A stretch of DNA of 36,825 nucleotides from a virus, in the IMG/VR virus record IMGVR_UViG_3300017598_000616, positions 1-36,825 of that record, one strand, 5' to 3'. Positions within the stretch are counted from its first letter, which is position 1; each line of letters begins with the position of its first letter. Under the pieces are notes generated by a model, which made no database searches, had not been told where the DNA came from, and saw only the letters and a list, made by a program, of their open reading frames with translations. Below are positions 7,217 to 32,832 of this stretch, in pieces. A program made the position numbers and the translations under genes.

Positions 7217-7238
7217 GGATATACAGGGGAGATGATAC

Positions 7239-7610: not shown

Positions 7611-7634
7611 GGAGTTATACTTAATACAGGAGTG

Positions 7635-7788: not shown

Positions 7789-7792
7789 AAAA

Positions 7793-7810: not shown

Positions 7811-7816
7811 AATTTA

Positions 7817-7963
7817 TTATTCCTCTATAGCTAGGGCCATATTAACTACATGATCTTCAATATCCCAGATAAAATTAGTGATATCTGCTGGATCTTCAAA
7901 ACCAAATACAGCCTCTCCATCAAAAGTCTCTACTGCTAATACATAAGTGATTTTATTCTTCAT
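7817..7963 (-). CDS. Small acidic hypothetical protein, 48 aa. It is the lone minus-strand gene inside the rightward arm (below the track cutoff).
   Basis: My translation is MKNKITYVLAVETFDGEAVFGFEDPADITNFIWDIEDHVVNMALAIEE. GGAGAA lies 4 nt before the ATG, and the gene is followed by the terminator hairpin. Confidence 0.5.
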   Translation of the reverse strand: MKNKITYVLAVETFDGEAVFGFEDPADITNFIWDIEDHVVNMALAIEE

Positions 7964-8019
7964 AAATTCTCCTAGATAAAATGTCATTTTCTATATTGTA
8001 CCATAATTCTCAGGATTCA

Positions 8020-8048
8020 TTGACTTATTTTGGACAATATACCAATAT
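8020..8048 (+). promoter_or_regulatory. Candidate promoter for the packaging/structural operon (TTGACT-17 nt-CAATAT)
   Basis: aTTGACTtattttggacaatatacCAATAT lies about 45 nt upstream of the terS start. It shares the ATTGACT heptamer with the other candidate promoters. Confidence 0.35.
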
Positions 8049-8090
8049 TAAAGTAAGGGATGAATATTCCAAGATCCTGAAGGGGAAAAA

Positions 8091-8579
8091 ATGGCGAAAA
8101 AGCGTAAAGTAGGAAGGCCTACTAAATATAATGATGATATTCCAGAGAAAATGCTGGATTTTTTCGATATTCCACTAACATATAAGACTACTGAGCAGAA
8201 GATGAGTGCTTCTGGAGTGGTTATGGATCTAGAAGTAGTAAAAGCTTCTCCTATGCCTACTTTTGAGGGATTTTCCTTAGAAATTGGAGTATGTATGGAT
8301 ACATTGACTGAGTGGAAAGCTAATCATAAGCCATTTTCCTTAGCTTATAGAGTCTGTAAGGGGATTCAGAAGAGATTCCTCATGAGCCATGGATTATCTG
8401 GAGCATATAATAGTAATTTTGCCAAATTCGTAGCTATCAACTGTACAGATATGGTAGATAGATCTGAGGTAAAATCTGAGAATGATCATACTGTAAAAGA
8501 GTATGGCCTGGCCTTTGATTTATCTAAGACTCCAGAAGAAGTAGCTAAGATTAATGAAGCTAAGAAGAAAAAAGACTAA
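8091..8579 (+). CDS. terS: Terminase small subunit
   Basis: N-terminal MAKKRKVGRPTKYNDD is typical of the helix-turn-helix N-termini of small terminases. It sits upstream of terL. Confidence 0.7.
   Translation: MAKKRKVGRPTKYNDDIPEKMLDFFDIPLTYKTTEQKMSASGVVMDLEVVKASPMPTFEGFSLEIGVCMDTLTEWKANHKPFSLAYRVCKGIQKRFLMSHGLSGAYNSNFAKFVAINCTDMVDRSEVKSENDHTVKEYGLAFDLSKTPEEVAKINEAKKKKD
8505..8513. repeat. GGCCWGGCC copy (GGCCTGGCC)
   Basis: Exact match. GGC-CTG-GCC (Gly-Leu-Ala) in terS. Confidence 0.95.
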
Positions 8580-8580
8580 T

Positions 8581-8606
8581 TGCACGATAATCTTTCTTAT
8601 CATGCA
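8581..8606 (+). other. Imperfect hairpin after terS (10-bp stem with one mismatch)
   Basis: TGCACGATAA-tctttc-TTATCATGCA with no downstream T-run. Function unclear. Confidence 0.3.
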
Positions 8607-8635
8607 GAAAAATAAGCATACTCCAAGGAGGGACT

Positions 8636-8815
8636 ATGAGCTTAATGCATCTAGTATTATGGATGAGTATCATGCTGGCCATAAATGTGGCAGCATTAGA
8701 AGTTATTTATAACCCATATCAGGATATAGATCATGGATGCATAAATACATATAGTTACGAGCAGGAGAAATCTTGCCCATGTGATGAGGAAGAAGCTGGG
8801 ATATATGGATATTAA
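8636..8815 (+). CDS. Small membrane protein, 59 aa, one predicted TM helix and three Cys (below the track cutoff)
   Basis: Strong Shine-Dalgarno AAGGAGGG. My translation is MSLMHLVLWMSIMLAINVAALEVIYNPYQDIDHGCINTYSYEQEKSCPCDEEEAGIYGY. Confidence 0.5.
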   Translation: MSLMHLVLWMSIMLAINVAALEVIYNPYQDIDHGCINTYSYEQEKSCPCDEEEAGIYGY

Positions 8816-9002
8816 AAAAGGATGCAAATACTATGTAGAAGGATCAGATCTCCTAATACATGTACTAAATATAGCCTACTCAGGCAATGGATATATAAAG
8901 GCCAGAATAAGAGAGACTAATATTAGGAATGGTATTTTCTATGGAGATAGATACTATAAACTATATAAGGATAAAATACAGCATTGGAAGCTTTTAAAAT
9001 AG
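8805..9002 (+). CDS. Hypothetical protein, about 65 aa
   Basis: The track ORF starts at a GTG at 8781. The ATG at 8805 avoids most of the overlap with the preceding ORF. No motif recognised. Confidence 0.5.
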   Translation: MDIKKGCKYYVEGSDLLIHVLNIAYSGNGYIKARIRETNIRNGIFYGDRYYKLYKDKIQHWKLLK

Positions 9003-10396
9003 AGGAATCCCCAGAGGAAGTCCTATCATTTACTACGTTTGATCCTACTCCTATCAATTGGCAGTATAGAGTATTATACGATCAGGCCAATAACTGGGAA
9101 TATGATAAGGGAGTAATAATAGCCCTTTACAGTGGAGCAGTAGGATCAGCAAAAACGACATTAGCAGCGACTCAGGCCATATCCCATTGCCTAAACTTCA
9201 AAAGAGCCAAGTGCTTATTAGGGAGAAGATCCCTTCCAGATTTAAGAGATACAATATATAGCGATATAGTAGAGCTACTAGATGCAGATGAGCAGCTAAT
9301 AGAGGGAGAAGATTATATCACCTTTGATCCTATATGTAGGATTATCTTCCCTAAGATGAAGAGTGAGATATTCTCTAGGACATGGGGAGATAAGAAGTAT
9401 AAGAAATTCAGATCCCTTAAGCTATCAATGGCCATCATAGAAGAAGCTACTGAGAATAATATAGAGGATAGGACTGCCATTAGAGAGATCATGCAACGTC
9501 TAAACAGAATTAGTCACATTAAGTCTAATACCTTGATTTTATTAACGAATCCAGACTCTCCAGGCCACTGGATACATAAGGATATCATTGAGAAATCTCA
9601 TGAAGATGGAATCCATGTTTACTACTCTCTCACTACAGATAATCCCTTCTTAGATAAAAATTACATAGATTTTCTACGCAAGACTCTTACAAAGAAGGAG
9701 GCTGATAGGCAGCTTAGGGGAATGTGGGTAGAAATTGACTCAGATAGAATTTACTATGCCTATACTTCAGAAGTGAATTTTAAGAGAGATGAAGAGTATC
9801 AAATAGATCCTAGATATAGAGTGGATTTGATGATGGATTTTAATATCGGAAAAGGAAAGCCAATGAGCTGGGCCCTAGGCCAATATGTAGATGATACCTT
9901 CCATATCTTCAAAGAGTATCATGCTTTCACTATGAGAACTGGCCAGCTATTACAGGAGATGGCTGAGGATGGAGCTTTTGATCTCCCAGTAAAATGGGGA
10001 GTATTTGGAGATGCTTCTGGGAGATACAATGATACTAGATCCAATTGGAGTGATATTGAGATAGTAGAGCAGTACATAGCAAATCATAGAAGGCCAGATG
10101 GCACTATGCTTGAGTATGAAATCAATATACCTAGAGCAAATCCTCCACTGAGAAGAAGGCATAATACGGCCAATGGATTAATGGAGAATGATCTAGGAGA
10201 GACTAGATTCTATGTATATAAAGGCTGCGAATGGGTAGATGAAGGATTTCGATTGACTGAGCCTAAGAAGGGAGCAGATAATATTGAGAATGATAATCTA
10301 GAGCAGCAGCATGTGACCACTGGAATTACATATTGGTGCGATTATATAACGCATAAATATATAGATAAGAGCAGATCATCAATGAGAAAGAAATAA
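8984..10396 (+). CDS. terL: Terminase large subunit
   Basis: Walker A YSGAVGSAKTT and Walker B LSMAIIEEATE. The C-terminal half carries conserved acidic residues (MMDFNIGKG, FGDASG), consistent with an RNase-H-like nuclease. Confidence 0.88.
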   Translation: MEAFKIEESPEEVLSFTTFDPTPINWQYRVLYDQANNWEYDKGVIIALYSGAVGSAKTTLAATQAISHCLNFKRAKCLLGRRSLPDLRDTIYSDIVELLDADEQLIEGEDYITFDPICRIIFPKMKSEIFSRTWGDKKYKKFRSLKLSMAIIEEATENNIEDRTAIREIMQRLNRISHIKSNTLILLTNPDSPGHWIHKDIIEKSHEDGIHVYYSLTTDNPFLDKNYIDFLRKTLTKKEADRQLRGMWVEIDSDRIYYAYTSEVNFKRDEEYQIDPRYRVDLMMDFNIGKGKPMSWALGQYVDDTFHIFKEYHAFTMRTGQLLQEMAEDGAFDLPVKWGVFGDASGRYNDTRSNWSDIEIVEQYIANHRRPDGTMLEYEINIPRANPPLRRRHNTANGLMENDLGETRFYVYKGCEWVDEGFRLTEPKKGADNIENDNLEQQHVTTGITYWCDYITHKYIDKSRSSMRKK

Positions 10397-10411
10397 TATA
10401 GGGGATATACT

Positions 10412-11962
10412 ATGATTGAAGTACAGAATACCGAGAAATTAGAAGATAGGATAGATGAGCTGCTATCAGATATTAAAGATCTGAGCTGCTTTTATGGCCA
10501 TAATGAAGAGATGCTAGATATCTATGAGGGGAATCTTCTCCCATATGTGGAGAAGCTAATGGAAGAGACTCTAGATGCTAGATACATGAAGCTAATAAAG
10601 CATAGAATCTTGCCTATAAATTTCTCTCAGAAGATAGTAGGGAAGCTGGCCAAATCTTATGGAGATGAGCCTATCAGATCATGTGAAGATCAGGACTGGA
10701 TGGATAGCTTTACTAAGATGATTCAGACTTCTTCTAGGATGGCATTAGCTGAAGAATACTCATATTTAAATAGAGGCTATGCTATAAAGCCTAAGCTTAC
10801 TAATAAGGGAAACATTAAGGCCGATGTACTGCCTTACGATAAATTCTTTGTAAAAGCTGATGATAATTCTGATCATTCAGTCCCTACAGTGTTTGTAGAA
10901 TTTCTAGGAAAGACTAAGAGATCTAAAGTAGGCAAGGATGATAAAGAGACTATTCACAATATTGACTGCTATATGGCCTATACTGATACTGAGATAGTGG
11001 CCTTTGACTCAGATGGAGATAAGATCTCAGAATATACTGAGAAGCTAAATGATATGAATCCAATTGGCTGCATCCCCTTTGTATATGGGAATAGATCAGT
11101 AAGTAATATAGTACCTAAGCAAGATACAGACTTTCTTAAGCTATCTAAAATCCTTCCATTGATGCTATCAGATATCAATGGGGCCATTATGTTTCAATGT
11201 TTCACATTAATCTATGGAATAGATGTAGAATTTAATGATGCTACTATGAGCCCTAATGCTATTTGGGACTTATCATCTAATCCTAAATCAGATAAGCCAG
11301 CTCAAATAGGGACTCTTCAGCCTACTGTAGATTCAGATAAGGCCCTTACTTTCTTTAAAAATATCTTATCATTCTGGCTGGATTCTAAAGGAATAGATGC
11401 AGGATCTATCATGCAGCTTGATTCTCAGGCAATGGCCTCAGGATTAAGCAAGGCAATGGATGAGCTAGATACTACAGAAGCGAGAAAGAAGAGTATCAAC
11501 TATCTGGCAAATGAAGAGAAGGAGCTATATATCCTACTAGCTAAGCTGAATAATTACTGGATGAAAGTGCCAGATGCTAAGGGGCTTAAGCTTAAAAAAG
11601 TAAATGTAGAGAAGATAGAAGAATCTGTAGAGATTGAATTTAAAGAGCCTATGCCTAAGCTTGATTTTACTACTGAGATTACAAATTCAGTTACTATGAT
11701 TAAGGAAGGATTAAGCTATAGAGAGAAAGAGATTAAGAGACTAAGCCCATATGCTTCTGAAGATGAGATTAATCAGATCTTTTTTGAGTATGGAGTAGAT
11801 AGATATGAGATAGGATCTAAGGAAGTAGTAGATGGAGTAGATCCAGCTAAGACTGAAGAAGAGCCTACTGCTGGGCCTGGCCTGGCCACTGAGGAAGAAG
11901 AAGTAAAAGAAGATAAGGATACAAATCCTGTAATAGAAGAAGAAAATCCTAAGGAGGAATAA
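10412..11962 (+). CDS. Portal protein
   Basis: 516 aa, immediately after terL, with an acidic C-terminal tail. The call rests on position and size. Confidence 0.75.
   Translation: MIEVQNTEKLEDRIDELLSDIKDLSCFYGHNEEMLDIYEGNLLPYVEKLMEETLDARYMKLIKHRILPINFSQKIVGKLAKSYGDEPIRSCEDQDWMDSFTKMIQTSSRMALAEEYSYLNRGYAIKPKLTNKGNIKADVLPYDKFFVKADDNSDHSVPTVFVEFLGKTKRSKVGKDDKETIHNIDCYMAYTDTEIVAFDSDGDKISEYTEKLNDMNPIGCIPFVYGNRSVSNIVPKQDTDFLKLSKILPLMLSDINGAIMFQCFTLIYGIDVEFNDATMSPNAIWDLSSNPKSDKPAQIGTLQPTVDSDKALTFFKNILSFWLDSKGIDAGSIMQLDSQAMASGLSKAMDELDTTEARKKSINYLANEEKELYILLAKLNNYWMKVPDAKGLKLKKVNVEKIEESVEIEFKEPMPKLDFTTEITNSVTMIKEGLSYREKEIKRLSPYASEDEINQIFFEYGVDRYEIGSKEVVDGVDPAKTEEEPTAGPGLATEEEEVKEDKDTNPVIEEENPKEE
11874..11887. 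repeat. Double (overlapping) GGCCWGGCC: GGCCTGGCCTGGCC
   Basis: Exact match in the portal C-terminal tail (…AGPGLAT…). Confidence 0.95.
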
Positions 11963-12153
11963 TGAAAAATGTAAAAGTAAAAGACGTAAAAGAAGAAGTG
12001 AAGAAAGAAGTAGAAGCTCCTAAGAAAGCTCCTATCAAGAAGAGTAAGAAGAATGAAGGCTTAGCAGCTTTTATGGAAGATAGAAATGCTAAGAGAAAGG
12101 CAGCAAGATTAGCTCCAGCCTATTCTGAAGAAGAAATTAAAGCTTGTAAGTAG
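11962..12153 (+). CDS. Small lysine-rich protein, 63 aa
   Basis: The ATG overlaps the portal stop (TAATG). Low-complexity K/E-rich sequence. Confidence 0.6.
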   Translation: MKNVKVKDVKEEVKKEVEAPKKAPIKKSKKNEGLAAFMEDRNAKRKAARLAPAYSEEEIKACK

Positions 12154-12209
12154 TATCTTTTGCAGGGGAGATACTATGAGGGAGAGAGTAGCCTCATACT
12201 TTCTCCCTC
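12151..12209 (+). terminator. Two tandem hairpins, the second followed by a T-tract (terminator or attenuator candidate)
   Basis: Hairpin A pairs 12151-12157 with 12170-12176 (TAGTATC/GATACTA). Hairpin B pairs 12178-12190 with 12197-12209, including GAGGGAGA/TCTCCCTC. TTTT follows at 12212-12215. Confidence 0.5.
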
Positions 12210-12229
12210 ACTTTTAATATAGGAGGCCC

Positions 12230-12775
12230 ATGGCTCAGCAAAAATTTACAGCTAAAGTATCTAAAAAATACACTGAAGAAGAGAGAGTGGCCATAGGAGT
12301 AGAGATGATAGATGCTATCATAGCTAGGACTAAGGCTGGAAAGGATAAAGATAATAAAAGCTTCAAAGGAGCTGCTGGAAAGTACTCTAAAGGATATACA
12401 TCTTCACTTGATTTCAAGCTAGGAGGAAAATCTAAGAGCCCAGTAAATCTCACATTATCTGGAGAGATGCTTAATGCATTGACTGTACTAGATACAGCAG
12501 ATGGAGAAATCACTATAGGTATCCCAGCCGATGATGATTTTAATAATAAGAAAGCAGAAGGGAATATCACTGGCTCATATGGAAAATCTAAGCCAGATTC
12601 ATCTAAGGCCAGGGACTTTATGGGAATGAGTAAGTCTCAAGTAAAAGACATAACTAGCAAATACCCTACTACTAAGAAGGGAGTAAATGCAGATCTCATT
12701 AAACTACTAGGATCTGCTGCAGCATCAGAGACTCTGGCCGAGTCTTTCTTTGATATAGAGGAGTTTAATTCATGA
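12230..12775 (+). CDS. Head-module hypothetical protein (possible minor head or morphogenesis protein)
   Basis: AGGAGG Shine-Dalgarno. Sits between portal and scaffold. The LTLSGEMLNAL segment resembles the LTATGQLLKSL segment of the next ORF. Confidence 0.7.
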   Translation: MAQQKFTAKVSKKYTEEERVAIGVEMIDAIIARTKAGKDKDNKSFKGAAGKYSKGYTSSLDFKLGGKSKSPVNLTLSGEMLNALTVLDTADGEITIGIPADDDFNNKKAEGNITGSYGKSKPDSSKARDFMGMSKSQVKDITSKYPTTKKGVNADLIKLLGSAAASETLAESFFDIEEFNS

Positions 12776-20574: not shown

Positions 20575-20864
20575 ATATCTCTGATACTGATAAAGTGATG
20601 ATGGGCCTGGCCCATTATTACTCCATCAGCCCATTAGAGATCTATAAGATAAATTCTAAGAGACTTTCTATAATGTATTCTGCTATGCTTTCAAATAGAG
20701 CAGCAGATAGAATAAGAAGAATAGAAGAAATAGGCAGCCCTAATATGAAGGAGAAGCCTAGAGAAAAATTCATCAATGGCCTTTTTAAGGAGATGGATAA
20801 TAAGTATAAAGATCCTCACATGGTAGAAGAGGATGAATTAAAAAGGATTTTTGGGAATGTCTGA
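20323..20864 (+). CDS. Tail assembly chaperone frameshift fusion (gpGT-like), made by a -1 shift at 20565..20571
   Basis: The conserved G/GT arrangement of long-tailed phages. The -1 frame is open from 20544 to 20864. Confidence 0.65.
20565..20571 (+). promoter_or_regulatory. Programmed -1 ribosomal frameshift slippery heptamer A_AAA_AAG
   Basis: In the zero frame the sequence reads GT-A AAA AAG TAG. The overlapping ORF 20544..20864 is in the -1 frame, and reading through gives …NSVKKVDISDTDKVMMGLAHYY…. Confidence 0.75.
20604..20612. repeat. GGCCWGGCC copy (GGCCTGGCC)
   Basis: Exact match. GGC-CTG-GCC (Gly-Leu-Ala) in the T frame. Confidence 0.95.
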
Positions 20865-22716
20865 TATAAATCTAATCATTAGCTATCAAAATGGGAATCT
20901 AAAAGAAGTCACAAATGATGCTGAGAAGAAGATGGGCAAGTCTGGAAAGAAATCTGGCCAGAATTTTGCTGCAGGATTTGGGACTGCTGCTAAAGGAGCT
21001 GCAAAAGCTGTAGCTGCCATAGGAGCTGCTGTAGCTGCAGTAGGCTCAGTAGTAATATTCAAATCTATAGGGCTAGCAAAAGAGCAGGAAGAAGCTGTAA
21101 ATAGCTTAAATACTGCCTTAAGAATAACAGGAAAATACTCTAAAGATACATCAGAAGAATTGCAAGCTTATGCTTCATCACTACAAGCGGCCTCAAAATT
21201 TGGGGATGAGACTATATTATCATCTCAAGCTTTAATACAATCTCTAGGTAACTTAGATAAAGATGCATTAAAAGGGGCTACTCAAGCGGCTCTAGATATG
21301 GCTTCAGCTCTTAAGATTGACTTAAGATCAGCAGCTACATTAGTCGGGAAAGCAGCAGCAGGGGAAGTAGGATCTTTCTCTAGATATGGAGTAGCAATAA
21401 AGAAAGGGGCTAATAATGCTGAGACTTTTAGCAATGCCCTTACAGCATTAAATAGTAAATTTGGAGGAGCTGCAGCAGGGGAATTAAATACCTATGCAGG
21501 AGCAGTCCAGCAAGCCAGTAATTCTTTCGGGGATATGCTGGAGAAAGTAGGGGATATCATTATTAAGAATCCTCTAATAATAAAAGCAATAAAAACATTA
21601 GGCCCTATATTCGATAAATTAGGAGCTGAGATAGTAGAATTTGGAAAGACCTTCAATATCTTTGATGGGCTAGTTACTCCATTCTTAAATATAAATGATG
21701 CAATAATTACTTATGTAGTAGCTCCATTAGAGCTAGTGGCCAATATCGGCCAGATTGTATTCAAGTCTCTAGTATCTGGGGTAGCTACAGTAGTCGCTGG
21801 ATTCGGATTTCTAGGAGAGAAAATAGCAGGATTATTAAGTGCTGTAGGATTAGGGAGTAAAGGAATTACTCAAGATCTACAAAATTTCGCTGCAGCTTCT
21901 AAAGAGACTGCAGAAGAAGCTGCCCTAGATGTAGGGAAAGCAGCAGAAGGTATCTTTGATTTTGATACATCTACAAAATTAGCAGCAAAAAATGAAGATT
22001 TAAGGACTTTCTTTCAAGATCAACGTGCAATTATTGAAGAAGAATCTGCTATTACTGAAGAAAAAACTCAGGAGAAATTAGCAGTAGTGGCTGAGCAGTC
22101 TCAGTCTTTTGCTTCTTTATTGCAAGGAACTTTCGGGAATGTCCAAATAGGTATTAAAAAGACTAAAGAAGAGATGGCCAAGACGGCAGCAGCTACGGCC
22201 AAGATTGTAAAGAATGGCCTGGCCAAGGGGATATCTGGAGGGATTCAGAATATCGCTACTTCACTCGCTAAGGGAGAAGATGTATTTGCAAATTTTGGGA
22301 AGTTTTTACTTACTACTATTGCAGATCTAGCTATCCAATTAGGTAGCTTCTTCATAGCAGAAGGGATAGCAGTAGAGGCTCTTAATGCAGTATCAGGTAC
22401 AGGAGCTATAGCTGCAGGAGCGGCCCTAGTGGCCCTAGGATCTCTTTTAAAAGCCTCAATTGGAGGGGGAGGAGCAGCAGCTTCTTCTGGAGGAAGTGGA
22501 GGGGGAGGATCTACTCCATCTTTCGCTTCAGATAATGAGCCTACAGGAGAATTTGTAGAGGAAGGAGCATCAGTAGCTCAAGCCAGCACTACAATTAATT
22601 TCAATGTAGATGGCAATATTAAAGGTGATGAAGAATTTATCAGGGAGATTGTAGAGGATATCGGTACTGAGGGCGGCAAGCAAGGCCTAGTATTTGATAA
22701 CTTCTCTTTAGCATAA
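20851..22716 (+). CDS. Tape measure protein
   Basis: 621 aa, Ala/Gly-rich and helical, with a hydrophobic segment and glycine runs (GGGGAAASSGGSGGGGS). Follows G/GT. Confidence 0.8.
   Translation: MGMSDINLIISYQNGNLKEVTNDAEKKMGKSGKKSGQNFAAGFGTAAKGAAKAVAAIGAAVAAVGSVVIFKSIGLAKEQEEAVNSLNTALRITGKYSKDTSEELQAYASSLQAASKFGDETILSSQALIQSLGNLDKDALKGATQAALDMASALKIDLRSAATLVGKAAAGEVGSFSRYGVAIKKGANNAETFSNALTALNSKFGGAAAGELNTYAGAVQQASNSFGDMLEKVGDIIIKNPLIIKAIKTLGPIFDKLGAEIVEFGKTFNIFDGLVTPFLNINDAIITYVVAPLELVANIGQIVFKSLVSGVATVVAGFGFLGEKIAGLLSAVGLGSKGITQDLQNFAAASKETAEEAALDVGKAAEGIFDFDTSTKLAAKNEDLRTFFQDQRAIIEEESAITEEKTQEKLAVVAEQSQSFASLLQGTFGNVQIGIKKTKEEMAKTAAATAKIVKNGLAKGISGGIQNIATSLAKGEDVFANFGKFLLTTIADLAIQLGSFFIAEGIAVEALNAVSGTGAIAAGAALVALGSLLKASIGGGGAAASSGGSGGGGSTPSFASDNEPTGEFVEEGASVAQASTTINFNVDGNIKGDEEFIREIVEDIGTEGGKQGLVFDNFSLA
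22216..22224. repeat. GGCCWGGCC copy (GGCCTGGCC)
   Basis: Exact match. GGC-CTG-GCC (Gly-Leu-Ala) in the tape measure gene. Confidence 0.95.
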
Positions 22717-23506: not shown

Positions 23507-25399
23507 ATGAGTAAGACAGAATTTAATCAGGAGCTATCAAGTGCTAAGGCCAATGCAGATTATCTACTAAAGACTGAAGATGATCTGATCACTGGGATAT
23601 TAAGTCTAGGGCAAGGCTCGAATCTTAATACATATATCTCAGATCTACAAGGCCACTTATACACTATAGCAGATATCATAGGAGTAGCTGGAGAAGCTGA
23701 TCCTAATGCTAAAATATATACAAGTGTAAATTATGTAGCTAATGGGGATGATAGAAAGGTAGCAATATCTAAGCTAGATGCTCAAGCTAAAATAAATGCT
23801 GATAATATAGCAGGGAATTTAGTACTAATTGGAGATAATGCAGCAGCTATACAGGCTATATTAGATTCAATTGGAGTAGCTAATGGAATATGTCCCCTAG
23901 ATGCTAATGCTAAAATACCTTCTACCTATCTCCCAGATGTATTATTGGAATATAAAGGGATCTGGGATGCTGATACTAATACTCCTACTTTAGCCGATGG
24001 CACAGGAGAGCTAAATGATTGGTATCGAGTAGATGTAGCTGGCACAGTAGATTTAGGATCTGGATCTATCTCTTATGCAGTAGGGGATAAGGTGGTACAT
24101 AATGGAACTATCTGGCAAAAATGGGATACTACTGAATCTGTAATCTCAGTAAATTCTATGACTGGAGCAGTAGTACTGGATAAGACTCATATTGGCCTGG
24201 CCAATGTTACTGATGATGCTCAATTAAAAAGATCTGCAGGAGATTGGCCAGTAGATTTTCCAGAGAAGGAATCTCCATCAGAGAATGATGTAGTATTGAT
24301 AGAAGATTCAGATGATTCACAAAATAAACGTACAGTAAAGCTAATAAACTTACTAGGATCAGGAGGCGGCGGCGGCGGCGGCTCTTTTGCATGGGAGTTG
24401 AATAAAGATATCTCCCCTCTAGAAAGCATAGTAAATGGAATATCTACTCTAGATTTTGATTATGAATCTGGGATGGCCATAAGTGCTTTATTAGTAGTCC
24501 CTTCTGGATATAGAGAAGGGAAGCATATAGCTATAGAAAATACTTCTTTTTTCTCTGAAGGTACTGCAGATAATGTACTCTTTAAGACAGTAACTACTCT
24601 ATTTAAAGCAGGAGAGGATGTAACTTCAGATGTAAATAGTAATTCCTCAGCATTGACTGAGACTACTTTATCTACTGCCAATGAATTACTACCAATGGGA
24701 ATATTTGAGCTTACAGATTCGGCTGGGAAGATTAATGGGAATATTGTAGAGAGTGGAGATATCCTAAAGATAGAATTATATAGAGATATAGATAATGAGA
24801 CTTCTTCTTCTTTGGAAGATGCTAGGATGCTAAAATATAGCTCTACTTTAAATTTTGACTATGAGACAGATATCGCTCCCCCTATAGGAGTACTTATTTG
24901 GAATACATCTCTATCCAGTACTAGCCCCCCTACTATAACGGCTATATCGGATTCAGTTTCTAAAGCTGGAGGGACAAATTATTCACCCGATAACAACTCA
25001 AGGACAAGCCAAGAAGTAGCATCAGGGAATTTATTCGTACAAGTCACAGTCCCTATCGGCTTTGCTAGTGGTGGAGCTAGAGGTAGAATAGGGCTTCAGA
25101 ATCCTGCTCCTCCTGTACCTGCCATCGGTACTGGGGCTCATACTGTCATGGATTATCAACTATATATTAGAGGTACAGTCCTTAGAGTGCATGAAGGTAC
25201 TGGATCGATAGCTCAAAACACTACGGTGGCTGATGGAGATGTAGTAAGGATAGAGATATCTGGATCAGATGTAATATACTCAAAAAATGGGACTCCATTC
25301 AGGACAGTAAGTGGGGCTACTTTAAATTACCCATATGGAGCTGGATGCGTTATGGATACTCAAGATACTTTAAATACTATAGAATTTGATACAATATAA
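23507..25399 (+). CDS. Tail fibre or receptor-binding protein candidate with a Gly7 hinge and a lectin-like C-terminal domain
   Basis: 630 aa with the linker GSGGGGGGGS. The C-terminal …YQLYIRGTVLRVHEGTGS…GDVVRIEISGSDVIYSKNG… resembles a ConA/LamG-type beta-sandwich by eye. Confidence 0.6.
   Translation: MSKTEFNQELSSAKANADYLLKTEDDLITGILSLGQGSNLNTYISDLQGHLYTIADIIGVAGEADPNAKIYTSVNYVANGDDRKVAISKLDAQAKINADNIAGNLVLIGDNAAAIQAILDSIGVANGICPLDANAKIPSTYLPDVLLEYKGIWDADTNTPTLADGTGELNDWYRVDVAGTVDLGSGSISYAVGDKVVHNGTIWQKWDTTESVISVNSMTGAVVLDKTHIGLANVTDDAQLKRSAGDWPVDFPEKESPSENDVVLIEDSDDSQNKRTVKLINLLGSGGGGGGGSFAWELNKDISPLESIVNGISTLDFDYESGMAISALLVVPSGYREGKHIAIENTSFFSEGTADNVLFKTVTTLFKAGEDVTSDVNSNSSALTETTLSTANELLPMGIFELTDSAGKINGNIVESGDILKIELYRDIDNETSSSLEDARMLKYSSTLNFDYETDIAPPIGVLIWNTSLSSTSPPTITAISDSVSKAGGTNYSPDNNSRTSQEVASGNLFVQVTVPIGFASGGARGRIGLQNPAPPVPAIGTGAHTVMDYQLYIRGTVLRVHEGTGSIAQNTTVADGDVVRIEISGSDVIYSKNGTPFRTVSGATLNYPYGAGCVMDTQDTLNTIEFDTI
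24194..24202. repeat. GGCCWGGCC copy (GGCCTGGCC)
   Basis: Exact match. GGC-CTG-GCC (Gly-Leu-Ala) in the fibre gene. Confidence 0.95.
24365..24382 (+). repeat. (GGC)6 in-frame trinucleotide repeat
   Basis: ggcggcggcggcggcggc, read directly. Encodes the poly-Gly hinge. Confidence 0.95.
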
Positions 25400-25408
25400 G
25401 GAATAATT

Positions 25409-27574
25409 ATGAGGAATTTTATCACATTTTTAATAGCTCTGGGGATCTTCCTAAGCTATAAGGCTCAGGCCCAAATTAAGCCAGCCCAGGCCCAGTACTT
25501 ACAGGAGAAAGGATTCCTAGTAAATCCCTCTTTTGAGCAGGGATACAAAGGCTGGACTATTGCAGGATGCTCTAAAAGTCTAGTAAGTGAGATTCCTTTC
25601 TTAAATAAATCTTTGAAATTAACTTGCGTAGGAGAATCATTCTCTATAAAGCAAGAAGATACTTCTCATATTGAGCTTAAGGGCCAGCAGGGGATCTATG
25701 ATCTGCAAGTAAAAGCAGATTTTCAAGGTACTAGAGTAAGCTTCCTAGGGGGAGGGACTAGATATTCTGAGATAAATGTAAATCCTAGAGATGGATTCAC
25801 TAGAGTTATAGATACTCCTTTTACAGTAAATGGCAATTCCAATGGGATAGAAATCTTCTCAGATTCTATTGTCACTGGGGAGATCATAATAGATAATGTA
25901 AAATTAGGCTTATCTTCTGAAGGATATCTGAAAGAAGATCTAGACGATACTCCAGTAGGGACTGTCCTAGCTTATAGCTCTGAGGTTATTCCAGAATCAT
26001 ACTTACTAGCTAATGGGGATTGTAAATCTAGAGCAGAATATTCTGCTCTCTTTGATGTATTAGGAGTAACTATAGGTACTTGCGACTCAGGGGCAGGAGC
26101 AAATACTGGATTTTTAATCCCAGATCTTAGAGATAAGTTCCTAAAAGGATTGACTGGAGGGAGAGTAGCTTTTGATACTCAGGCAGATTCTACTGCTAAA
26201 AATGGCCTATCAGTTTCTAATAATACAGTAACTTCTGGGAGTCAAAATGCAAATCATAATCATGCAGATGGGCTAGGATTTGCAGGATCATCAGGCCAGA
26301 CTAGATATGGGCTAATAAATCTAAGCGGTGATTCAGTTATGAATGACTATGGGGCAAATGCCTATGCTGCTACTTATTCTACATATGCCAGTACTTCTCT
26401 AAATTTACAGAATCATCAACACTCAGTTACATCTAATGTAACTCTAGGAGCAGGGGATTCTAAGACTCAGCCAGAGAATACTGCAGTAGTATATATCATA
26501 AAAGCCAAGGGGAGATCTCCTAGGACTATAGTATCTCAGAGAAGCTTAGCTCCAGAGATGGCTGGATTCATAACGTGGGCGGCCTTTGATGGAGATGTAA
26601 AAGGATTTTTAAAAGCAGATGGATCTTGTATCTCTAAGAGTGCATATCCAGACTATGAAGAGAATGTATCTAATCTCTATGGAGATTGTAACTATAATGG
26701 GCAGGGAGCTAACACAGGATTACTCCTTCCAGATCTAGTCACTGGCAATAGATTTGCTAGAATGGCAGGGGGAGGATTGGCAGTAGGTACTGCTTTAAAT
26801 GATACTACTGCTAAAAATGGATTGACTGCATCGGCATCTTCAGTTGGGAATCATACTCATACTTCATATATAAATTACTCTAATGGCGGCGGTGGTGTCC
26901 AATATAATGGGGGAGGAGTATCTGCCTATTCTGCAATTCAAACTGGAGGGGCAGGAGCGCATGGGCATACAATTACAATAGGAGCAGGAGATTCTGAGAC
27001 TGCTCCAAATAGCCTAGCTTTAGTAGCCTATGTGAGAATGGAAAATAGCTCAGAGATAAATGGAGAAATTAAAAACGCTCCAAAATTAGGAGATTGCAAG
27101 TGGAGCTTACTATCCACTACTGATTTTAATTCACTTCATACAGGGGATTGGGTACGACTTCAAGGCCAGTCACTAACTGGGACTGATATAGATTCTCAAT
27201 TCGGTGTATCTTCTCTCCCAAATGCAGTAGGATCTGGGGCATTTTTAAGAATGAATGGAGGAGCTTCAGGATCACTGAGATCTGTACAGAGCCAAGATAC
27301 TAAATTAAATGGTATCACAGCCTCATCTCCTGCCCATGGGCATCCTTATAGGACTTTAAATACTACAGGATCTCCAGACTCTTATGGAGGGGGAATGATC
27401 ATGGATGGGAATGGGGCCCATACTAATCAGGCAGCATATACAGGCACTCCAGCCAATGAAAGATCAAAAGTAATAGGTGGTACAGCAGCTACAATAAATC
27501 TAAATAATGATGGCCAAGAGACTAGACCTAGCAACGTATCTTTAAACTTTTACTGCCTAGTAGATAATAACTAA
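25409..27574 (+). CDS. Protein with a Sec-type signal peptide, a carbohydrate-binding-like jelly-roll domain and three phage tail-collar domain repeats
   Basis: N-terminus MRNFITFLIALGIFLSYKAQAQ. NPSFEQGYKGWT…IIIDNVKLG is CBM-like. Three modules carry tail-collar signatures: GFLIPDLRDKFLKG, GLLLPDLVTGNRFARMAGG, SSLPNAVGSGAFLRMNGG. Each ends G(A)GDS(K/E)T(Q/A)P(E/N)… or GQETRPSN. HxH motifs present: NHNH, HQH, HTH, HGH (twice). Confidence 0.8.
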   Translation: MRNFITFLIALGIFLSYKAQAQIKPAQAQYLQEKGFLVNPSFEQGYKGWTIAGCSKSLVSEIPFLNKSLKLTCVGESFSIKQEDTSHIELKGQQGIYDLQVKADFQGTRVSFLGGGTRYSEINVNPRDGFTRVIDTPFTVNGNSNGIEIFSDSIVTGEIIIDNVKLGLSSEGYLKEDLDDTPVGTVLAYSSEVIPESYLLANGDCKSRAEYSALFDVLGVTIGTCDSGAGANTGFLIPDLRDKFLKGLTGGRVAFDTQADSTAKNGLSVSNNTVTSGSQNANHNHADGLGFAGSSGQTRYGLINLSGDSVMNDYGANAYAATYSTYASTSLNLQNHQHSVTSNVTLGAGDSKTQPENTAVVYIIKAKGRSPRTIVSQRSLAPEMAGFITWAAFDGDVKGFLKADGSCISKSAYPDYEENVSNLYGDCNYNGQGANTGLLLPDLVTGNRFARMAGGGLAVGTALNDTTAKNGLTASASSVGNHTHTSYINYSNGGGGVQYNGGGVSAYSAIQTGGAGAHGHTITIGAGDSETAPNSLALVAYVRMENSSEINGEIKNAPKLGDCKWSLLSTTDFNSLHTGDWVRLQGQSLTGTDIDSQFGVSSLPNAVGSGAFLRMNGGASGSLRSVQSQDTKLNGITASSPAHGHPYRTLNTTGSPDSYGGGMIMDGNGAHTNQAAYTGTPANERSKVIGGTAATINLNNDGQETRPSNVSLNFYCLVDNN

Positions 27575-27586: not shown

Positions 27587-28000
27587 ATGAAAAAAATACT
27601 ACTTATTACAACTATGCTAATCTCTTTTAATTGCTTATCAGAGATGACAGCCAAGATAATCCCAGATGATTCTGAGAAATCTTCAGAGATTCATGAGGCT
27701 AAGACTCAGAAGAAATTAGAGAAGAAATTATCTAAAATAGTAAAGAATGATTCTAAATTAATAGGGAAGTGGAGAGATAAAAGAGCCAGATCTATCTTCA
27801 GTAGAGAGAAAGATGGGAAAGTAGAGTACTTTAAGCCCACTAATTTTAAGGTAGAATTTGAAGATGTGACTGTAGCTAGGAAAGAAGCTAGAGATAAAGC
27901 GAAAAAAGTAAAAGATAAAAGAGATTATCTTATCAATAAATTGAAAAATAAAGATCTTAATTTAAAGCAAGTAAATGACTACTTAAGAACATTGGAATAA
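27587..28000 (+). CDS. Secreted or lipoprotein-like lysine-rich protein, 137 aa
   Basis: MKKILLITTMLISFNCLSE signal sequence with Cys16. Immediately downstream of the tail-collar gene. Confidence 0.65.
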   Translation: MKKILLITTMLISFNCLSEMTAKIIPDDSEKSSEIHEAKTQKKLEKKLSKIVKNDSKLIGKWRDKRARSIFSREKDGKVEYFKPTNFKVEFEDVTVARKEARDKAKKVKDKRDYLINKLKNKDLNLKQVNDYLRTLE

Positions 28001-28003
28001 ATC

Positions 28004-28264
28004 ATGGATGATACACTAGTACTAGCGATAATGGGGAGCTTTATAAGCCTCCTACTTATCATAAATGCATACTTTACTAGAGAGACTTTACTAAGAGTAG
28101 TATCTCTGGAAGTGGCCATTAAAGAATCTACTACTAAGCAATTCTATAATGAAAGGCAAATAGATGAAAATACTGCAGAATTAAAGAAGCTCAGAGATAG
28201 AATCCATACTGTAGAAGGTTATCAGCCAGCCATTATCAAGGCCTTAGAGGATCTGGCCTCATAA
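28004..28264 (+). CDS. Single-pass membrane protein with a helical C-terminal domain (holin or i-spanin candidate)
   Basis: MDDTLVLAIMGSFISLLLIINAYFTRE, then a charged helical region of about 55 aa. Confidence 0.6.
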   Translation: MDDTLVLAIMGSFISLLLIINAYFTRETLLRVVSLEVAIKESTTKQFYNERQIDENTAELKKLRDRIHTVEGYQPAIIKALEDLAS

Positions 28265-28606: not shown

Positions 28607-28799
28607 TATCCTTAATCTACTTGTAAAATACCTAGGACTCCCCTTGCTTGAAAAGCTGGGGAGATTCCTAGTAGCTAAAATAGCAAGATACTTAAAAGAT
28701 AAGAAGCTAAAAAAAGATCAAAAGAAGAAGGAGAAGGCAATTGAAGAAGCTAAAAATCCTGAAGATACTCGTACTGCTCATAGGAATAATAAGCTTTAG
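28599..28799 (+). CDS. Small basic protein with an amphipathic N-terminus, 66 aa
   Basis: The ATG overlaps the previous stop by 8 nt. Sequence MSSILNLLVKYLGLPLLEKLGRFLVAKIARYLKDKKLKK…. Confidence 0.5.
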   Translation: MSSILNLLVKYLGLPLLEKLGRFLVAKIARYLKDKKLKKDQKKKEKAIEEAKNPEDTRTAHRNNKL

Positions 28800-29115
28800 C
28801 AGTTGTGGGACTTCCCTACCTAAGAAGCCTACTCTAGAAAGTGGGATTATGATCCTAGAATCCAATGAGGTATTCTTTGTAAATAATCAAACTTCAGAAG
28901 AAAGAAGCATCCCTATTTATACTGAGGGATCATGTACTATAAATGAAGAATTAAGTAAATCATCTATCCACTCTAATCAGGATTGGAATAGAGTATTATT
29001 ATATGTGAGACTGCTAGAAAGTAGGATCAAAAGTAAAAAAGTGAAGAGAGAATTAAGAAAGATTAGAGATTCATTTTTTTTACTAAATAAAAGGGCTAAA
29101 TTATATGGCTTATAA
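28741..29115 (+). CDS. Putative lipoprotein, 124 aa, TTG start, overlapping the 3' end of the previous ORF (o-spanin-like arrangement or exclusion lipoprotein)
   Basis: TTG at 28741 with AAGGAG about 8 nt upstream. KKLKILKILVLLIGIISFSSC is a lipobox-like signal. Confidence 0.55.
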   Translation: MKKLKILKILVLLIGIISFSSCGTSLPKKPTLESGIMILESNEVFFVNNQTSEERSIPIYTEGSCTINEELSKSSIHSNQDWNRVLLYVRLLESRIKSKKVKRELRKIRDSFFLLNKRAKLYGL

Positions 29116-32122: not shown

Positions 32123-32446
32123 ATGTTTTTTCCAGTGACTAATTATTTTGAAGTACAGTTAAATAATGCTTCTACTGTTTATACAGCCACGCAAGATTGT
32201 TTTGTGTGGGCGGCTCCAGTAGTAGATGATTTTGATGGAGGATCTTTTGTACAAATATCTTATGCAGCTAGGCCTCCATATACCCCAGCAAATGTAGTAA
32301 CACTATCTGGATCTAATCAATCTCCACCAGATGGATATAATGGTAGGATACAATTTCTCCAATCTGGAGATAGAGTCATATTAGCCACTAGTGGGCCTAC
32401 AGCTTGTAAGATTAGAGTAATGACTTTAATGCCTAGGCCAGCATGA
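32123..32446 (+). CDS. Hypothetical tail-module protein, 107 aa
   Basis: ORF in operon context. No motif recognised. Confidence 0.6.
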   Translation: MFFPVTNYFEVQLNNASTVYTATQDCFVWAAPVVDDFDGGSFVQISYAARPPYTPANVVTLSGSNQSPPDGYNGRIQFLQSGDRVILATSGPTACKIRVMTLMPRPA

Positions 32447-32832
32447 TTTTATTTAAACATGAGAGAGATAGAGAGTTGATATTCGGAATCCAGCCTATAT
32501 TATTTATGATCCTACTAGATATGAGTATCTATGCAAAAGAGAAGCATGGGATAGATCTCACAGTCACGGCTACTTCATCTACTGAAGAAGAAGATCTTAA
32601 GCTGGGGAGAAAATCATCAGCCCATAGAGAGAAGAGAGCTTTAGATATTAGAAGCAAGGATATAAATGTATATATCACTCAGGATATAGTAACTTATATT
32701 AATAATAAGGAAGAGTATAAGCATTATAGATACATGAGCTTCAGTGGAATAGAAAGATTAGCATATGTACATACAATGCCAGGCCAATCTGAGCATATCC
32801 ATTTGGCCTTAAATAGTAGATTTAAAATGTAA
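32443..32832 (+). CDS. Peptidase M15-family cell-wall hydrolase (endolysin or virion-associated lysin)
   Basis: SAHREKRALDIRS (SxHxxxxAxD zinc-ligand motif) plus the C-terminal EHIHLAL histidine motif, typical of VanY / L-Ala-D-Glu peptidase-type enzymes. Confidence 0.7.
   Translation: MILFKHERDRELIFGIQPILFMILLDMSIYAKEKHGIDLTVTATSSTEEEDLKLGRKSSAHREKRALDIRSKDINVYITQDIVTYINNKEEYKHYRYMSFSGIERLAYVHTMPGQSEHIHLALNSRFKM

What the first reader, a model, noticed from the sequence alone, without database searches (positions are those of the whole stretch)
25409..27574. Tail-fibre-like protein with a cleavable-looking Sec signal peptide, a sugar-binding-like domain and three tandem tail-collar modules with HxH motifs
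The N-terminus MRNFITFLIALGIFLSYKAQA|QIK has the n-h-c layout of a Sec signal peptide with an AxA-like cleavage site. Virion tail proteins are assembled in the cytoplasm and normally have no signal peptide.

After it comes a jelly-roll of about 150 aa with hallmarks of carbohydrate-binding modules (NPSFEQGYKGWT … IIIDNVKLG).

Three repeats of the phage tail-collar domain follow, at roughly aa 180-365, 380-545 and 555-721. Each repeat has:
- the LPDL(R/V)…F…G core;
- a TAKNGL or TKLNGI segment;
- HxH motifs (NHNH, HQH, HTH, HGH, HGH), like the metal-binding His pairs of T4 gp12 and gp37;
- a G(A)GDSxTxP(E/N) or GQETRPSN ending.

The product is either an unusual receptor-binding protein whose hydrophobic N-terminus is an assembly anchor, or a secreted envelope-targeted factor. 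In the second case possible roles are receptor masking, a depolymerase-like function, or a bacteriocin-like function.
Basis: partly seen in the sequence, partly recalled or inferred. Interest (0 to 1): 0.62.

Follow-up and report, generated by a model that had tools for sequence, protein, structure and literature searches.

The report
Phage tail fibre with export signal
A marine phage's tail-fibre-like protein starts with what looks like a real secretion signal and has paired cysteines, so it probably folds outside the cytoplasm, a route that the textbook picture of tailed-phage assembly does not include.

Summary
The window is a complete 36.8-kb phage genome with direct terminal repeats. ORF 25409-27574 lies in the tail operon.

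The leader looks functional:
- It is the only possible start of the protein.
- 143 of 149 relatives (clusters at 50% identity) have an equivalent leader, while the leader sequence itself drifts.
- 131 of 139 relatives have an even cysteine count in the mature part, as disulfide-bonded exported proteins do.

The N-domain folds as a carbohydrate-binding-type beta-sandwich. Three gp12-like collar modules with HxH motifs follow.

In four genomes of this lineage the gene keeps its place. Its tip and the small leader-bearing gene after it are swapped, as happens with receptor-binding cassettes.

In the cultured Cellulophaga phage phi10:1, five consecutive distal tail genes carry such leaders. GenBank annotates four of them from MS/MS proteomics (three as structural proteins). 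So a leader does not exclude a virion role.

Best reading (about 0.4): an exported, disulfide-bonded host-recognition fibre that joins the tail at lysis. Main rival (about 0.33): an exported factor that never joins the virion.

This scan has noted export signals on phage fibres in other genomes. I found no paper that describes them. No trained signal-peptide predictor was available.

The parts
25398..25402 (+). Shine-Dalgarno-like AAGGA, 6 nt before the ATG. It overlaps the stop codon of the upstream gene.
   Evidence: Sequence read. Such motifs precede 69% of the window's ORFs, against a 12% background.
25409..27574 (+). Whole gene: 721-aa leader-bearing fibre-like protein (stop codon included).
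25409..25471 (+). Signal peptide, aa 1-21, with predicted signal peptidase I cleavage at A21|Q22.
   Evidence: It has the n-h-c layout with A at -3 and -1. In alignment A1 the leader sequence varies while Q22 and the mature N-terminus are invariant. 143 of 149 relatives have an equivalent leader. No alternative in-frame start exists.
25472..25924 (+). Conserved N-domain, aa 22-172: a carbohydrate-binding-type beta-sandwich with invariant C54 and C73.
   Evidence: pLDDT is about 80-90. Foldseek finds CBM16/61/22/27 in PDB and CenC-type phage fibre domains in BFVD. 171 clusters match at E<=1e-3.
25934..26524 (+). Collar module 1, aa 176-372 (C205, C225; HNH at 283, HQH at 336).
   Evidence: Pfam Collar covers aa 184-244, which is nt 25958-26140. 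PHROG tail-collar fibre families match it. Self-BLAST.
26525..27052 (+). Collar module 2, aa 373-548 (C407, C427; HTH at 482, HGH at 518).
   Evidence: The second Collar stretch is nt 26564-26692. Module 1 against module 2 gives E=1.5e-22.
27053..27571 (+). Collar module 3, aa 549-721 (C563, C716; HGH at 643). It ends in the conserved NFYCLV tail.
   Evidence: Module 2 against module 3 gives E=7e-10. The C-terminal motif is shared by P0001-P0005, P0007 and P0008.
27587..28000 (+). Small (137 aa) leader-bearing partner gene that varies together with the fibre.
   Evidence: Its counterparts in L002, L003 and L021 also carry leaders. It is only 31% identical between the window and L003, whereas flanking genes are 71-94% identical.
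23507..25399 (+). Upstream 630-aa fibre-like tail protein without a leader. Its last ~180 aa are specific to the window.
   Evidence: PHROG minor-tail and tail-protein families match it. Its first 450 aa are 71% identical to the 449-aa protein of L003.

Best explanation
The gene encodes a modular host-recognition fibre that is exported rather than folded in the cytoplasm.

Shown by the sequence
- Every molecule is made with the leader, because there is no other in-frame start.
- The gene sits in the tail operon, 9 nt after the previous tail gene.
- It consists of a leader, a carbohydrate-binding-type beta-sandwich and three gp12-like collar modules with HxH motifs.

Inferred with good support
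- The leader takes the chain through Sec, and signal peptidase I cuts between A21 and Q22.
- The eight cysteines then form four disulfides in the periplasm. Going by spacing, these would be C54-C73, C205-C225, C407-C427 and C563-C716.

Inferred by homology
- The collar modules act as receptor-binding knobs, probably trimeric, with His pairs holding a metal ion as in T4 gp12.

Inferred from gene order and co-variation
- The leader-bearing 137-aa protein encoded next is its periplasmic helper, a chaperone or adaptor.

Speculative last step
- Tails assembled in the cytoplasm pick the fibre up when the holin opens the inner membrane and the two compartments merge, shortly before or at rupture of the outer membrane.
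For: Leader
- 143 of 149 relatives (clusters at 50% identity) start with a hydrophobic leader. 110 of those have a (-3,-1)|Q site directly after it.
- In the close subfamily the leader sequence drifts while the residues from Q22 onward are invariant.
- The start codon is unambiguous.

Oxidative folding
- 131 of 139 relatives have an even number of cysteines in the mature part, with counts from 2 to 24 (binomial p=4e-30; relatedness inflates this).
- Mean cysteine content is 2.1% (1.1% in the window protein). The window's capsid and tail proteins have 0-3 cysteines each.

Fibre or receptor-binding character
- Collar domain and tail-fibre PHROG hits.
- The gene holds the same position in four genomes of the lineage: the window, L002, L003 and L021.
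- Between the window and L003 the flanking tail genes are 71-75% identical, the N-domain 52%, the tip unrelated and the partner 31%.
- In a second siphophage lineage (L020) a leader-bearing, 14-cysteine collar protein is the last large tail gene before the endolysin.
- Relatives also lie in a fibre-gene cluster of a 184-kb contig, and just after the capsid genes of another phage type.

A virion role is compatible with a leader
- Cellulophaga phage phi10:1 gp091-gp095 all start with leaders with Q at +1.
- GenBank annotates gp091-gp094 on the basis of experimental MS/MS proteomics, gp091 and gp092 as structural proteins.
Against: - No trained signal-peptide predictor was available, and no experiment bears on this protein.
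- Virion assembly of tailed phages is cytoplasmic in every studied case, and I found no paper describing exported fibres.
- The phi10:1 proteins are not homologous to this one (hhalign probability 1%). Proteomic detection could also reflect co-purifying envelope material.
- The mature protein has no recognisable tail-docking domain.
- The N-domain does not track the phage backbone (52% identity against 71-75% for the neighbours). This argues against it being a specific docking domain.
- The phage has two other large tail proteins without leaders, of 630 aa and 813 aa, that could serve as the receptor-binding proteins.
- A more distant relative (G236:C13, major capsid protein 41% identical) has an ordinary fibre without a leader.
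- Pick-up of the fibre at lysis is unproven and may be inefficient.
Confidence: 0.4

Rival explanations
1. The protein is an exported accessory factor that never joins the virion. It is sent to the periplasm late in infection, the N-domain binds an envelope glycan, and the variable collar tip binds a second target. It would act there or on cell debris after lysis. Possible roles are superinfection exclusion, masking of receptors so that progeny are not lost on debris, or another change to the envelope. This is analogous in logic to T5 Llp, Cor or lambda Lom.
For: - The evidence for export is the same as above.
- No tail-docking domain is recognisable, and the N-domain is a carbohydrate-binding-type fold.
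- The gene heads a run of small envelope-directed genes: a leader-bearing 137-aa protein, an 86-aa membrane protein and a 124-aa lipoprotein-like protein.
- The fibre and its partner vary together, as T5's receptor-binding protein and Llp do.
- The phage has other candidate receptor-binding proteins.
- A distant relative manages without such a gene.
- Matrishin et al. 2023 read leader-bearing Porphyromonas phage genes as envelope modifiers.
Against: - Known exclusion proteins are small. A 721-aa protein taking 6% of a 36.8-kb genome, kept at a fixed place in four genomes, would be unusual for an accessory gene.
- The tip is not similar to any other tail protein of the same phage, so it is not a soluble copy of the virion's own binder.
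- In L020 the leader-bearing protein is the only collar-type binder in the tail module.
- The phi10:1 leader-bearing proteins were annotated from MS/MS proteomics.
Confidence: 0.33
2. The hydrophobic N-terminus is not used for export. The protein folds in the cytoplasm as an ordinary tail fibre, and the first 21 residues serve as an assembly anchor or are simply tolerated.
For: - This agrees with the general rule that tails assemble in the cytoplasm.
- The phi10:1 proteins with similar N-termini appear in the MS/MS-based annotation, which is explained most simply if they never leave the cytoplasm.
Against: - The hydrophobic core has only about 12 residues and is followed by a canonical A-x-A site, so it is not a membrane anchor.
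- Across 143 relatives the three-part layout and the cleavage-site rule are kept while the sequence drifts.
- 94% of relatives have an even cysteine count, at 8-20 cysteines per protein. That is very hard to explain for a protein folding in a reducing cytoplasm.
- Ordinary collar fibre proteins of cultured phages lack both features. One example is the Pelagibacter phage HTVC027P collar protein: no leader and one cysteine.
Confidence: 0.1
3. The protein is released from the living infected cell as a free agent. After Sec export it would cross the outer membrane, for example through a type II secretion system, and act at a distance as an adhesin, a bacteriocin-like killer or a depolymerase.
For: - The leader plus disulfide-rich, carbohydrate-binding-type design resembles type II secretion substrates. 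This rests on my own knowledge and was not tested.
- Bdellovibrio MAT fibres show that leader-bearing phage-fibre-like proteins can reach a cell surface.
Against: - No enzymatic, toxin or pore-forming domain was found in this protein or in 62 relatives.
- There is no type IX secretion C-terminal domain. The C-terminus is the end of a collar module.
- The host and its secretion systems are unknown.
Confidence: 0.07

Closest known systems
T4 gp12 / Pfam Collar (PF07484) receptor-binding domains of phage tail fibres
   Same: The Collar HMM hit is well above the cut-off. Each module has the collar core (L/IPDL...F..G), an inserted His-rich part with HxH, and a closing strand (E/NT.P.N....Y). PHROG tail-collar fibre families match module 1.
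   Different: There are three modules in tandem in one chain, each with its own cysteine pair. The protein carries a signal peptide and a carbohydrate-binding-type N-domain in place of a tail-docking N-terminus. It shows no sequence match to any solved structure.
Cellulophaga phage phi10:1 gp091-gp095 (NC_021802.1), distal tail proteins of a cultured marine siphophage
   Same: They have Sec-type leaders with small residues at -3 and -1 and Q at +1. They sit at the distal end of the tail module, just before the membrane proteins of the lysis region. They are fibre-like or sugar-directed proteins with even cysteine counts. GenBank annotates gp091-gp094 from MS/MS proteomics, gp091 and gp092 as structural proteins. 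gp094 is a fold-level match to the N-domain (rank 6).
   Different: No sequence relationship was detected (hhalign probability 1%). They have few cysteines (0-2). That phage uses no Shine-Dalgarno motifs (4% of ORFs against 69% here), so the hosts differ.
Bdellovibrio bacteriovorus MAT (mosaic adhesive trimer) fibres, Caulton et al. 2024 (PMC10769870)
   Same: [quoted passage not shown]
   Different: MAT fibres are chromosomal genes of a predatory bacterium, not genes in a phage tail operon. The paper says the MAT N-domain has no structural homologue in PDB, whereas this N-domain matches CBM folds. Homology to MAT could not be tested because no MAT N-domain sequence was at hand.
CenC-type carbohydrate-binding modules (CBM16, CBM22, CBM27, CBM61; CBM_4_9-like beta-sandwich)
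   Same: The fold matches with target TM about 0.7 and E about 1e-6. The N(P/G)(S/G)FE.G...W opening motif is present. The same fold occurs in tips of virion fibres in BFVD.
   Different: No Pfam CBM model hits the sequence. Ligand and binding residues are unknown. Here the domain sits at the N-terminus, the conserved end, rather than at the tip.
Exported phage accessory proteins encoded beside tail genes (T5 Llp, Cor of phi80/N15, lambda Lom). Named from my own knowledge.
   Same: They are phage-encoded, carry export signals, lie next to receptor-binding genes and vary with them.
   Different: They are small lipoproteins or outer-membrane proteins with no fibre domains. No sequence or fold similarity was seen or tested.

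Membership tests
Sec / signal peptidase I signal peptide | Positively charged n-region, an uncharged hydrophobic h-region of about 10-15 residues, and a c-region with small residues at -3 and -1 | tested here: met
   The leader has R2, the core FITFLIALGIFL, and A-Q-A before Q22. The rule holds in 12 of 12 close homologues. An h-region is present in 143 of 149 relatives. This was a rule-based check only.
Sec / signal peptidase I signal peptide | Positive call by a trained predictor (SignalP, DeepTMHMM) | not testable with these tools
   No such predictor is installed.
Sec / signal peptidase I signal peptide | Actual export and cleavage | not testable with these tools
   The evidence is indirect only: an even cysteine count in 131 of 139 relatives.
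Bacteroidetes Q-rule substrates | Gln immediately after the cleavage site | tested here: met
   Q22 is invariant in the subfamily. 110 of 143 relatives have it (77%), against a Bacteroidetes mean of 71%.
Bacteroidetes Q-rule substrates | The host belongs to Bacteroidetes and has a glutaminyl cyclase | tested here: inconclusive
   Shine-Dalgarno motifs precede 69% of ORFs here, against 4% in a true Bacteroidota phage. The partner protein has Q at +1 in 1 of 4 genomes. One related phage contig is binned in a Bacteroidota MAG.
Phage tail collar domain (PF07484) / gp12-like receptor-binding module | Profile match above Pfam's gathering score | tested here: met
   48.6 bits against 24. Two stretches were found. 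The third module is recognised only through its similarity to module 2.
Phage tail collar domain (PF07484) / gp12-like receptor-binding module | HxH pair in the inserted domain, holding a metal ion on the trimer axis | tested here: inconclusive
   The motif is present five times and conserved in homologues. Metal binding and trimer formation could not be tested, and the model of these parts has pLDDT about 30.
Virion tail fibre / receptor-binding protein | Encoded in the tail module, with a conserved proximal part and a swappable distal part | tested here: met
Virion tail fibre / receptor-binding protein | Presence in the particle and a recognisable tail-docking N-terminus | not testable with these tools
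   No proteomics exists for this uncultured lineage. The N-domain family is absent from 50,697 deposited phages. No docking domain was recognised.
Carbohydrate-binding module (CenC-like) | Beta-sandwich jelly-roll fold | tested here: met
   Foldseek target TM about 0.7 to CBM16, CBM61 and CBM22.
Carbohydrate-binding module (CenC-like) | Sequence-profile membership and sugar binding | tested here: not met
   No Pfam CBM hit at E<=1. Binding itself cannot be tested here.
Bdellovibrio MAT fibre superfamily | Signal peptide followed by the family's conserved N-domain | not tested
   The architecture is analogous. No MAT N-domain sequence was available, and that domain is reported to lack PDB homologues, unlike this one.

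The most novel reading that the evidence does not exclude
This would be two-compartment assembly of a tailed phage. The host-recognition fibre is made with a leader, exported by Sec and trimmed by signal peptidase I. It is then folded with disulfides in the periplasm with a co-exported helper. It joins cytoplasmically built tails only when the holin merges the compartments at lysis. The same would hold for a large, undescribed family (at least 171 clusters) spread over several phage lineages, and for the leader-bearing tail proteins of the cultured Cellulophaga phage phi10:1.
Probability: 0.3. Interest if true: 0.9.

Novelty: new variant of a known kind. Interest (0 to 1): 0.65.

Why it matters
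Tailed-phage particles are taught to be built entirely in the cytoplasm. This work describes a large, unannotated family of fibre-like proteins from phage tail modules that carry conserved export signals and paired cysteines. Either part of the host-recognition apparatus of many environmental phages matures outside the cytoplasm, or phages commonly send large fibre-like binders into the host envelope for a purpose not yet described.

Both readings bear on three things: how host range is predicted from fibre genes, how such fibres should be expressed for study (in the periplasm, under oxidising conditions), and how lysis and assembly are coupled.

The Cellulophaga phage phi10:1 with its host C. 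baltica shows the same feature and is cultured. The question can therefore be tested directly at the bench.

Tried and rejected
Host identification failed.
- Scans of genome contigs and viral contigs with the close N-domain alignment found nothing.
- A subfamily alignment found only two short phage-like contigs in MAGs.
- 400 Bacteroidota genomes gave only weak, generic CBM hits to the N-domain.
- They gave one related all-phage contig for the portal.
- The best phage match of the DNA polymerase is a Silvanigrella aquatica phage, but no other gene is shared with it.

Structure gave little beyond the N-domain.
- The full-length AlphaFold model is usable only for the N-domain and the collar cores (mean pLDDT 49). 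A trimer or a single-chain pseudo-trimer of the three modules could not be judged.
- The model of the 137-aa partner was too poor to search with (pLDDT 53).
- Sequence and profile searches of PDB found nothing.

Ideas rejected.
- An alternative start giving a leaderless form: none exists before codon 69.
- A tip that copies another tail protein of the same phage, that is, a decoy: no similarity.
- A type IX secretion C-terminal domain: the C-terminus is a collar strand.
- A lipoprotein reading of the 137-aa partner: its counterparts have signal peptidase I-type sites.
- A Bacteroidota host inferred from the Q-rule alone: contradicted by Shine-Dalgarno use.

Other dead ends.
- Six literature searches found no description of leader-bearing tail fibres.
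- The paper behind the phi10:1 proteomics is not held.
Full report
WHAT THE WINDOW IS

The 36,825-base window is a whole virus record with direct terminal repeats. Its G+C content is 36%.

A leftward replication arm holds a family A DNA polymerase and a primase/helicase-like protein.

A rightward late arm holds, in order:
- terminase, portal and an HK97-type major capsid protein;
- a tape-measure protein (20851-22716);
- a 261-aa protein;
- a 630-aa fibre-like protein (23507-25399);
- the gene in question (25409-27574);
- five small genes;
- an 813-aa tail protein.

Portal and the 813-aa protein have no match among 50,697 deposited phages. The lineage is therefore uncultured.

CHECK OF THE OBSERVATION

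- ORF and start. The ORF is 721 aa. It can only begin at the ATG at 25409. An in-frame stop lies four codons upstream, AAGGA lies six bases before the ATG, and the next in-frame start codon is codon 69, inside the first domain. Every molecule is therefore made with the leader.
- Leader. MRNFITFLIALGIFLSYKAQA|QIK has a basic residue, a 12-residue uncharged hydrophobic core, and Ala at -3 and -1. Among the window's real genes only this one and four small ORFs have such an N-terminus.
- Collar domain. Pfam finds the Collar domain at 48.6 bits against a 24-bit cut-off, in two stretches. PHROG tail-collar and tail-fibre families match aa ~170-368.
- Three modules. Self-comparison confirms them. Residues 176-372 against 373-548 give E=1.5e-22. 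Residues 373-548 against 549-721 give E=7e-10.
- Motifs. The TAKNGL/TKLNGI, L/IPDL and G.GDS.T.P.N/GQETRPSN motifs are at the stated places.
- HxH. There are five HxH motifs, which take 10 of the 13 histidines. None of 100,000 shuffles reached five, and the homologues keep them.
- N-domain. Residues ~40-170 are modelled at pLDDT 80-90. They match CBM16, CBM61, CBM22 and CBM27 beta-sandwiches with target TM about 0.7. They also match CenC-type domains of phage fibres in BFVD. No Pfam CBM profile hits the sequence.

IS THE LEADER REAL?

Three lines of evidence say yes.

1. Conservation across a large family.
- A full HMMER scan of 1.84 billion representative proteins with residues 1-178 found 171 clusters at E<=1e-3.
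- Of 149 family members, 143 begin with a hydrophobic leader. Three of the other six are visibly truncated gene calls. Three have a different N-terminal extension without a leader.
- In the close subfamily the leader drifts freely, while Q22 and the following QxKPAxxQY are invariant. That is the usual signature of a cleaved signal peptide in front of a conserved mature protein.

2. Cysteine parity.
- 131 of 139 relatives have an even number of cysteines in the mature part. Counts range from 2 to 24, typically 8-20.
- The binomial p is 4e-30. Relatedness inflates this, but the counts themselves differ widely.
- Mean cysteine content is 2.1% (1.1% in the window protein). The window's capsid and tail proteins carry 0-3 cysteines each.
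- The window protein has eight cysteines in four evident pairs: 54/73, 205/225, 407/427 and 563/716.
- This is what oxidative folding outside the cytoplasm predicts. It is hard to reconcile with a cytoplasmic fibre.

3. Contrast with an ordinary collar protein.
- The collar protein of the cultured Pelagibacter phage HTVC027P has no leader and one cysteine.

No trained predictor was available, so the signal-peptide call rests on rules and comparison.

GENOMIC BEHAVIOUR

- Fixed position. Four genomes of the same 36-38-kb lineage (the window, L002, L003, L021) keep the gene at the same place. It lies after the tape-measure protein, a ~260-aa protein and a fibre-like protein, and before the same small genes and the ~813-aa protein.
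- Swapped tip and partner. Between the window and its close relative L003, the flanking tail proteins are 71-75% identical and the lipoprotein-like gene 94%. The leader-bearing protein shares only its N-domain (52%) and has an unrelated C-terminal part. The small gene right after it is 31% identical.
- Partner gene. That small gene (27587-28000) also begins with a signal peptide in all four genomes.
- A variable cassette. The C-terminus of the upstream fibre, the leader-bearing fibre and its leader-bearing partner thus form a variable cassette inside a conserved tail module. This is the pattern known for a receptor-binding protein with its chaperone, and also for T5's receptor-binding protein with Llp.
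- Leader-coding island. The leader-coding stretch itself is an island of 78-87% nucleotide identity between divergent flanks.
- Transcription. Nothing suggests a separate transcription unit.

THE SAME DESIGN ELSEWHERE

- In a second siphophage lineage (L020), P0008 joins a leader directly to a fibre shaft and collar modules. It has 14 cysteines and is the last large tail gene before a CHAP endolysin.
- P0120 lies in a cluster of fibre genes on a 184-kb contig, and its collar-bearing neighbours have no leader.
- Two freshwater contigs place a family member right after the capsid genes and a fibre-like gene.
- The C-terminal parts fall into several unrelated types and carry no enzymatic Pfam domain.
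- A more distant relative of the window phage (G236:C13, major capsid protein 41% identical) has an ordinary fibre without a leader.

THE PRECEDENT THAT CHANGED MY READING

One BFVD fold hit was a 'structural protein' of Cellulophaga phage phi10:1. I therefore read that cultured phage's record.

- Five consecutive distal tail genes, gp091-gp095, begin with textbook leaders followed by Gln. Examples are MKKILLLLLFISASLSA|QTT and MKHTISIVLFFILSLGLNA|QTV. They lie just before the membrane proteins of the lysis region.
- The GenBank notes say the annotation of gp091-gp094 is based on experimental MS/MS proteomics. gp091 and gp092 are named structural proteins, gp093 pectate lyase and gp094 tail fiber protein.
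- These proteins are not homologous to the window protein. Proteomic detection can include co-purifying material.
- Even so, this is experimental evidence that leader-bearing tail-module proteins can be associated with virions.
- I found no paper that remarks on it. The original paper is not held.

HOW IT MOST LIKELY WORKS

Shown:
- the obligatory leader;
- membership of the tail operon;
- the domain order.

Well supported by inference:
- Sec export;
- cleavage at A21|Q22;
- four disulfides formed in the periplasm.

By homology:
- collar modules as receptor-binding knobs with His-held metal ions, probably trimeric.

By gene order and co-variation:
- the 137-aa partner as a periplasmic helper.

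Speculative:
- The fibre meets the cytoplasmic tails when the holin opens the inner membrane.

I give the whole chain about 0.4. The main rival is an exported factor that acts on the envelope or on debris and never joins the particle, at about 0.33. Its support is the lack of a docking domain, an N-domain that does not track the backbone, the neighbouring envelope-directed genes, and the presence of two other large tail proteins. A cytoplasmic fibre whose leader is unused gets about 0.1, mainly because of the cysteine parity. A freely secreted adhesin, bacteriocin or depolymerase gets about 0.07, since no such domain was found.

HOST (UNRESOLVED)

- For a Bacteroidota-type host. Gln follows the predicted site in 77% of relatives. 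That is the range reported for Bacteroidetes and a few relatives such as Ignavibacterium.
- Against it. Shine-Dalgarno motifs precede 69% of the window's ORFs, against a 12% background, and 35-59% in relatives. The figure is 4% in the true Bacteroidota phage phi10:1.
- Other leads. The polymerase's best match is a Silvanigrella aquatica phage, with no other shared gene.

COMPARISON WITH WHAT IS KNOWN

- The tip modules belong to the Collar/gp12 kind.
- The N-domain has a CenC-type CBM fold but belongs to no described family.
- The architecture (leader, conserved N-domain, swappable tips) works like the Bdellovibrio MAT fibres. Membership in that family was not testable and seems unlikely.
- Matrishin et al. 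2023 noted Q-rule leaders on Porphyromonas phage genes of unknown function and read them as envelope modifiers.
- Earlier notes of this scan report export signals on fibre genes in several other phage genomes. This window is thus another instance of a recurring observation that I could not find in print. It adds the parity statistic for a 149-member family and the phi10:1 precedent.

Noticed in passing
L022 (NC_021802.1) 41847-48878: In the cultured Cellulophaga phage phi10:1, five consecutive distal tail genes (gp091-gp095) begin with signal peptides followed by Gln. GenBank annotates gp091-gp094 from MS/MS proteomics. I found no paper that mentions this.
   Followed up: partly
window 27587-28000: A 137-aa lysine-rich protein with a signal peptide lies directly after the fibre gene. 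Counterparts in L002, L003 and L021 also have leaders. It evolves as fast as the fibre tip (31% identity where neighbours are 71-94%). The AlphaFold model was too poor to use (pLDDT 53).
   Followed up: partly
window 28741-29115: A 124-aa ORF with a TTG start and a lipoprotein-type leader (LIGIISFSSC) overlaps both neighbouring genes. It is 94% identical in L003 and 50% in L021. An 86-aa single-pass membrane protein lies at 28004-28264. They may be lysis (spanin- or holin-like) genes placed inside the tail module.
   Followed up: partly
window 25409-25480 and L003 10001-10072: The leader-coding stretch is an island of 78-87% nucleotide identity between the window and L003, while the sequence on both sides is about 40-55% identical. 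It could be a recombination joint for swapping fibre cassettes.
   Followed up: partly
window 23507-25399: The upstream 630-aa fibre-like protein shares its first 450 aa (71%) with the 449-aa protein of L003. It carries an extra C-terminal part of about 180 aa that is specific to the window.
   Followed up: partly
whole window: Strong Shine-Dalgarno motifs (often ATAGGAG) precede 69% of ORFs, against a 12% background. This clashes with the Bacteroidetes-like Gln at +1 of the signal peptides. The host remains unknown.
   Followed up: partly
window 3185-5260 (-): By far the best deposited-phage match of the family A DNA polymerase is the phage of Silvanigrella aquatica (CP017838.1): 30% identity and E=5e-64, with the next hit at 1e-10. 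No other gene is shared.
   Followed up: yes
window 32443-32832: This 129-aa ORF holds the place of the 130-aa Peptidase_M15_3 endolysin of L021 but shows no BLAST similarity to it. Its SAHREKRALD and HIH motifs suggest to me a zinc peptidase of a similar kind. No profile confirmed this.
   Followed up: partly
L004 (Logan ERR15087792 contig, 184 kb) 5857-12232: A large phage contig has a cluster of fibre genes. Two are collar-domain proteins without leaders, and the next one (P0120) is a family member with a leader.
   Followed up: partly
L025+L026 (G236:C13, 33,165 bp): This all-phage contig, binned in a Bacteroidota-phylum genome, is related to the window phage (major capsid protein 41% identical, portal 30%). 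Its fibre gene has no leader.
   Followed up: partly
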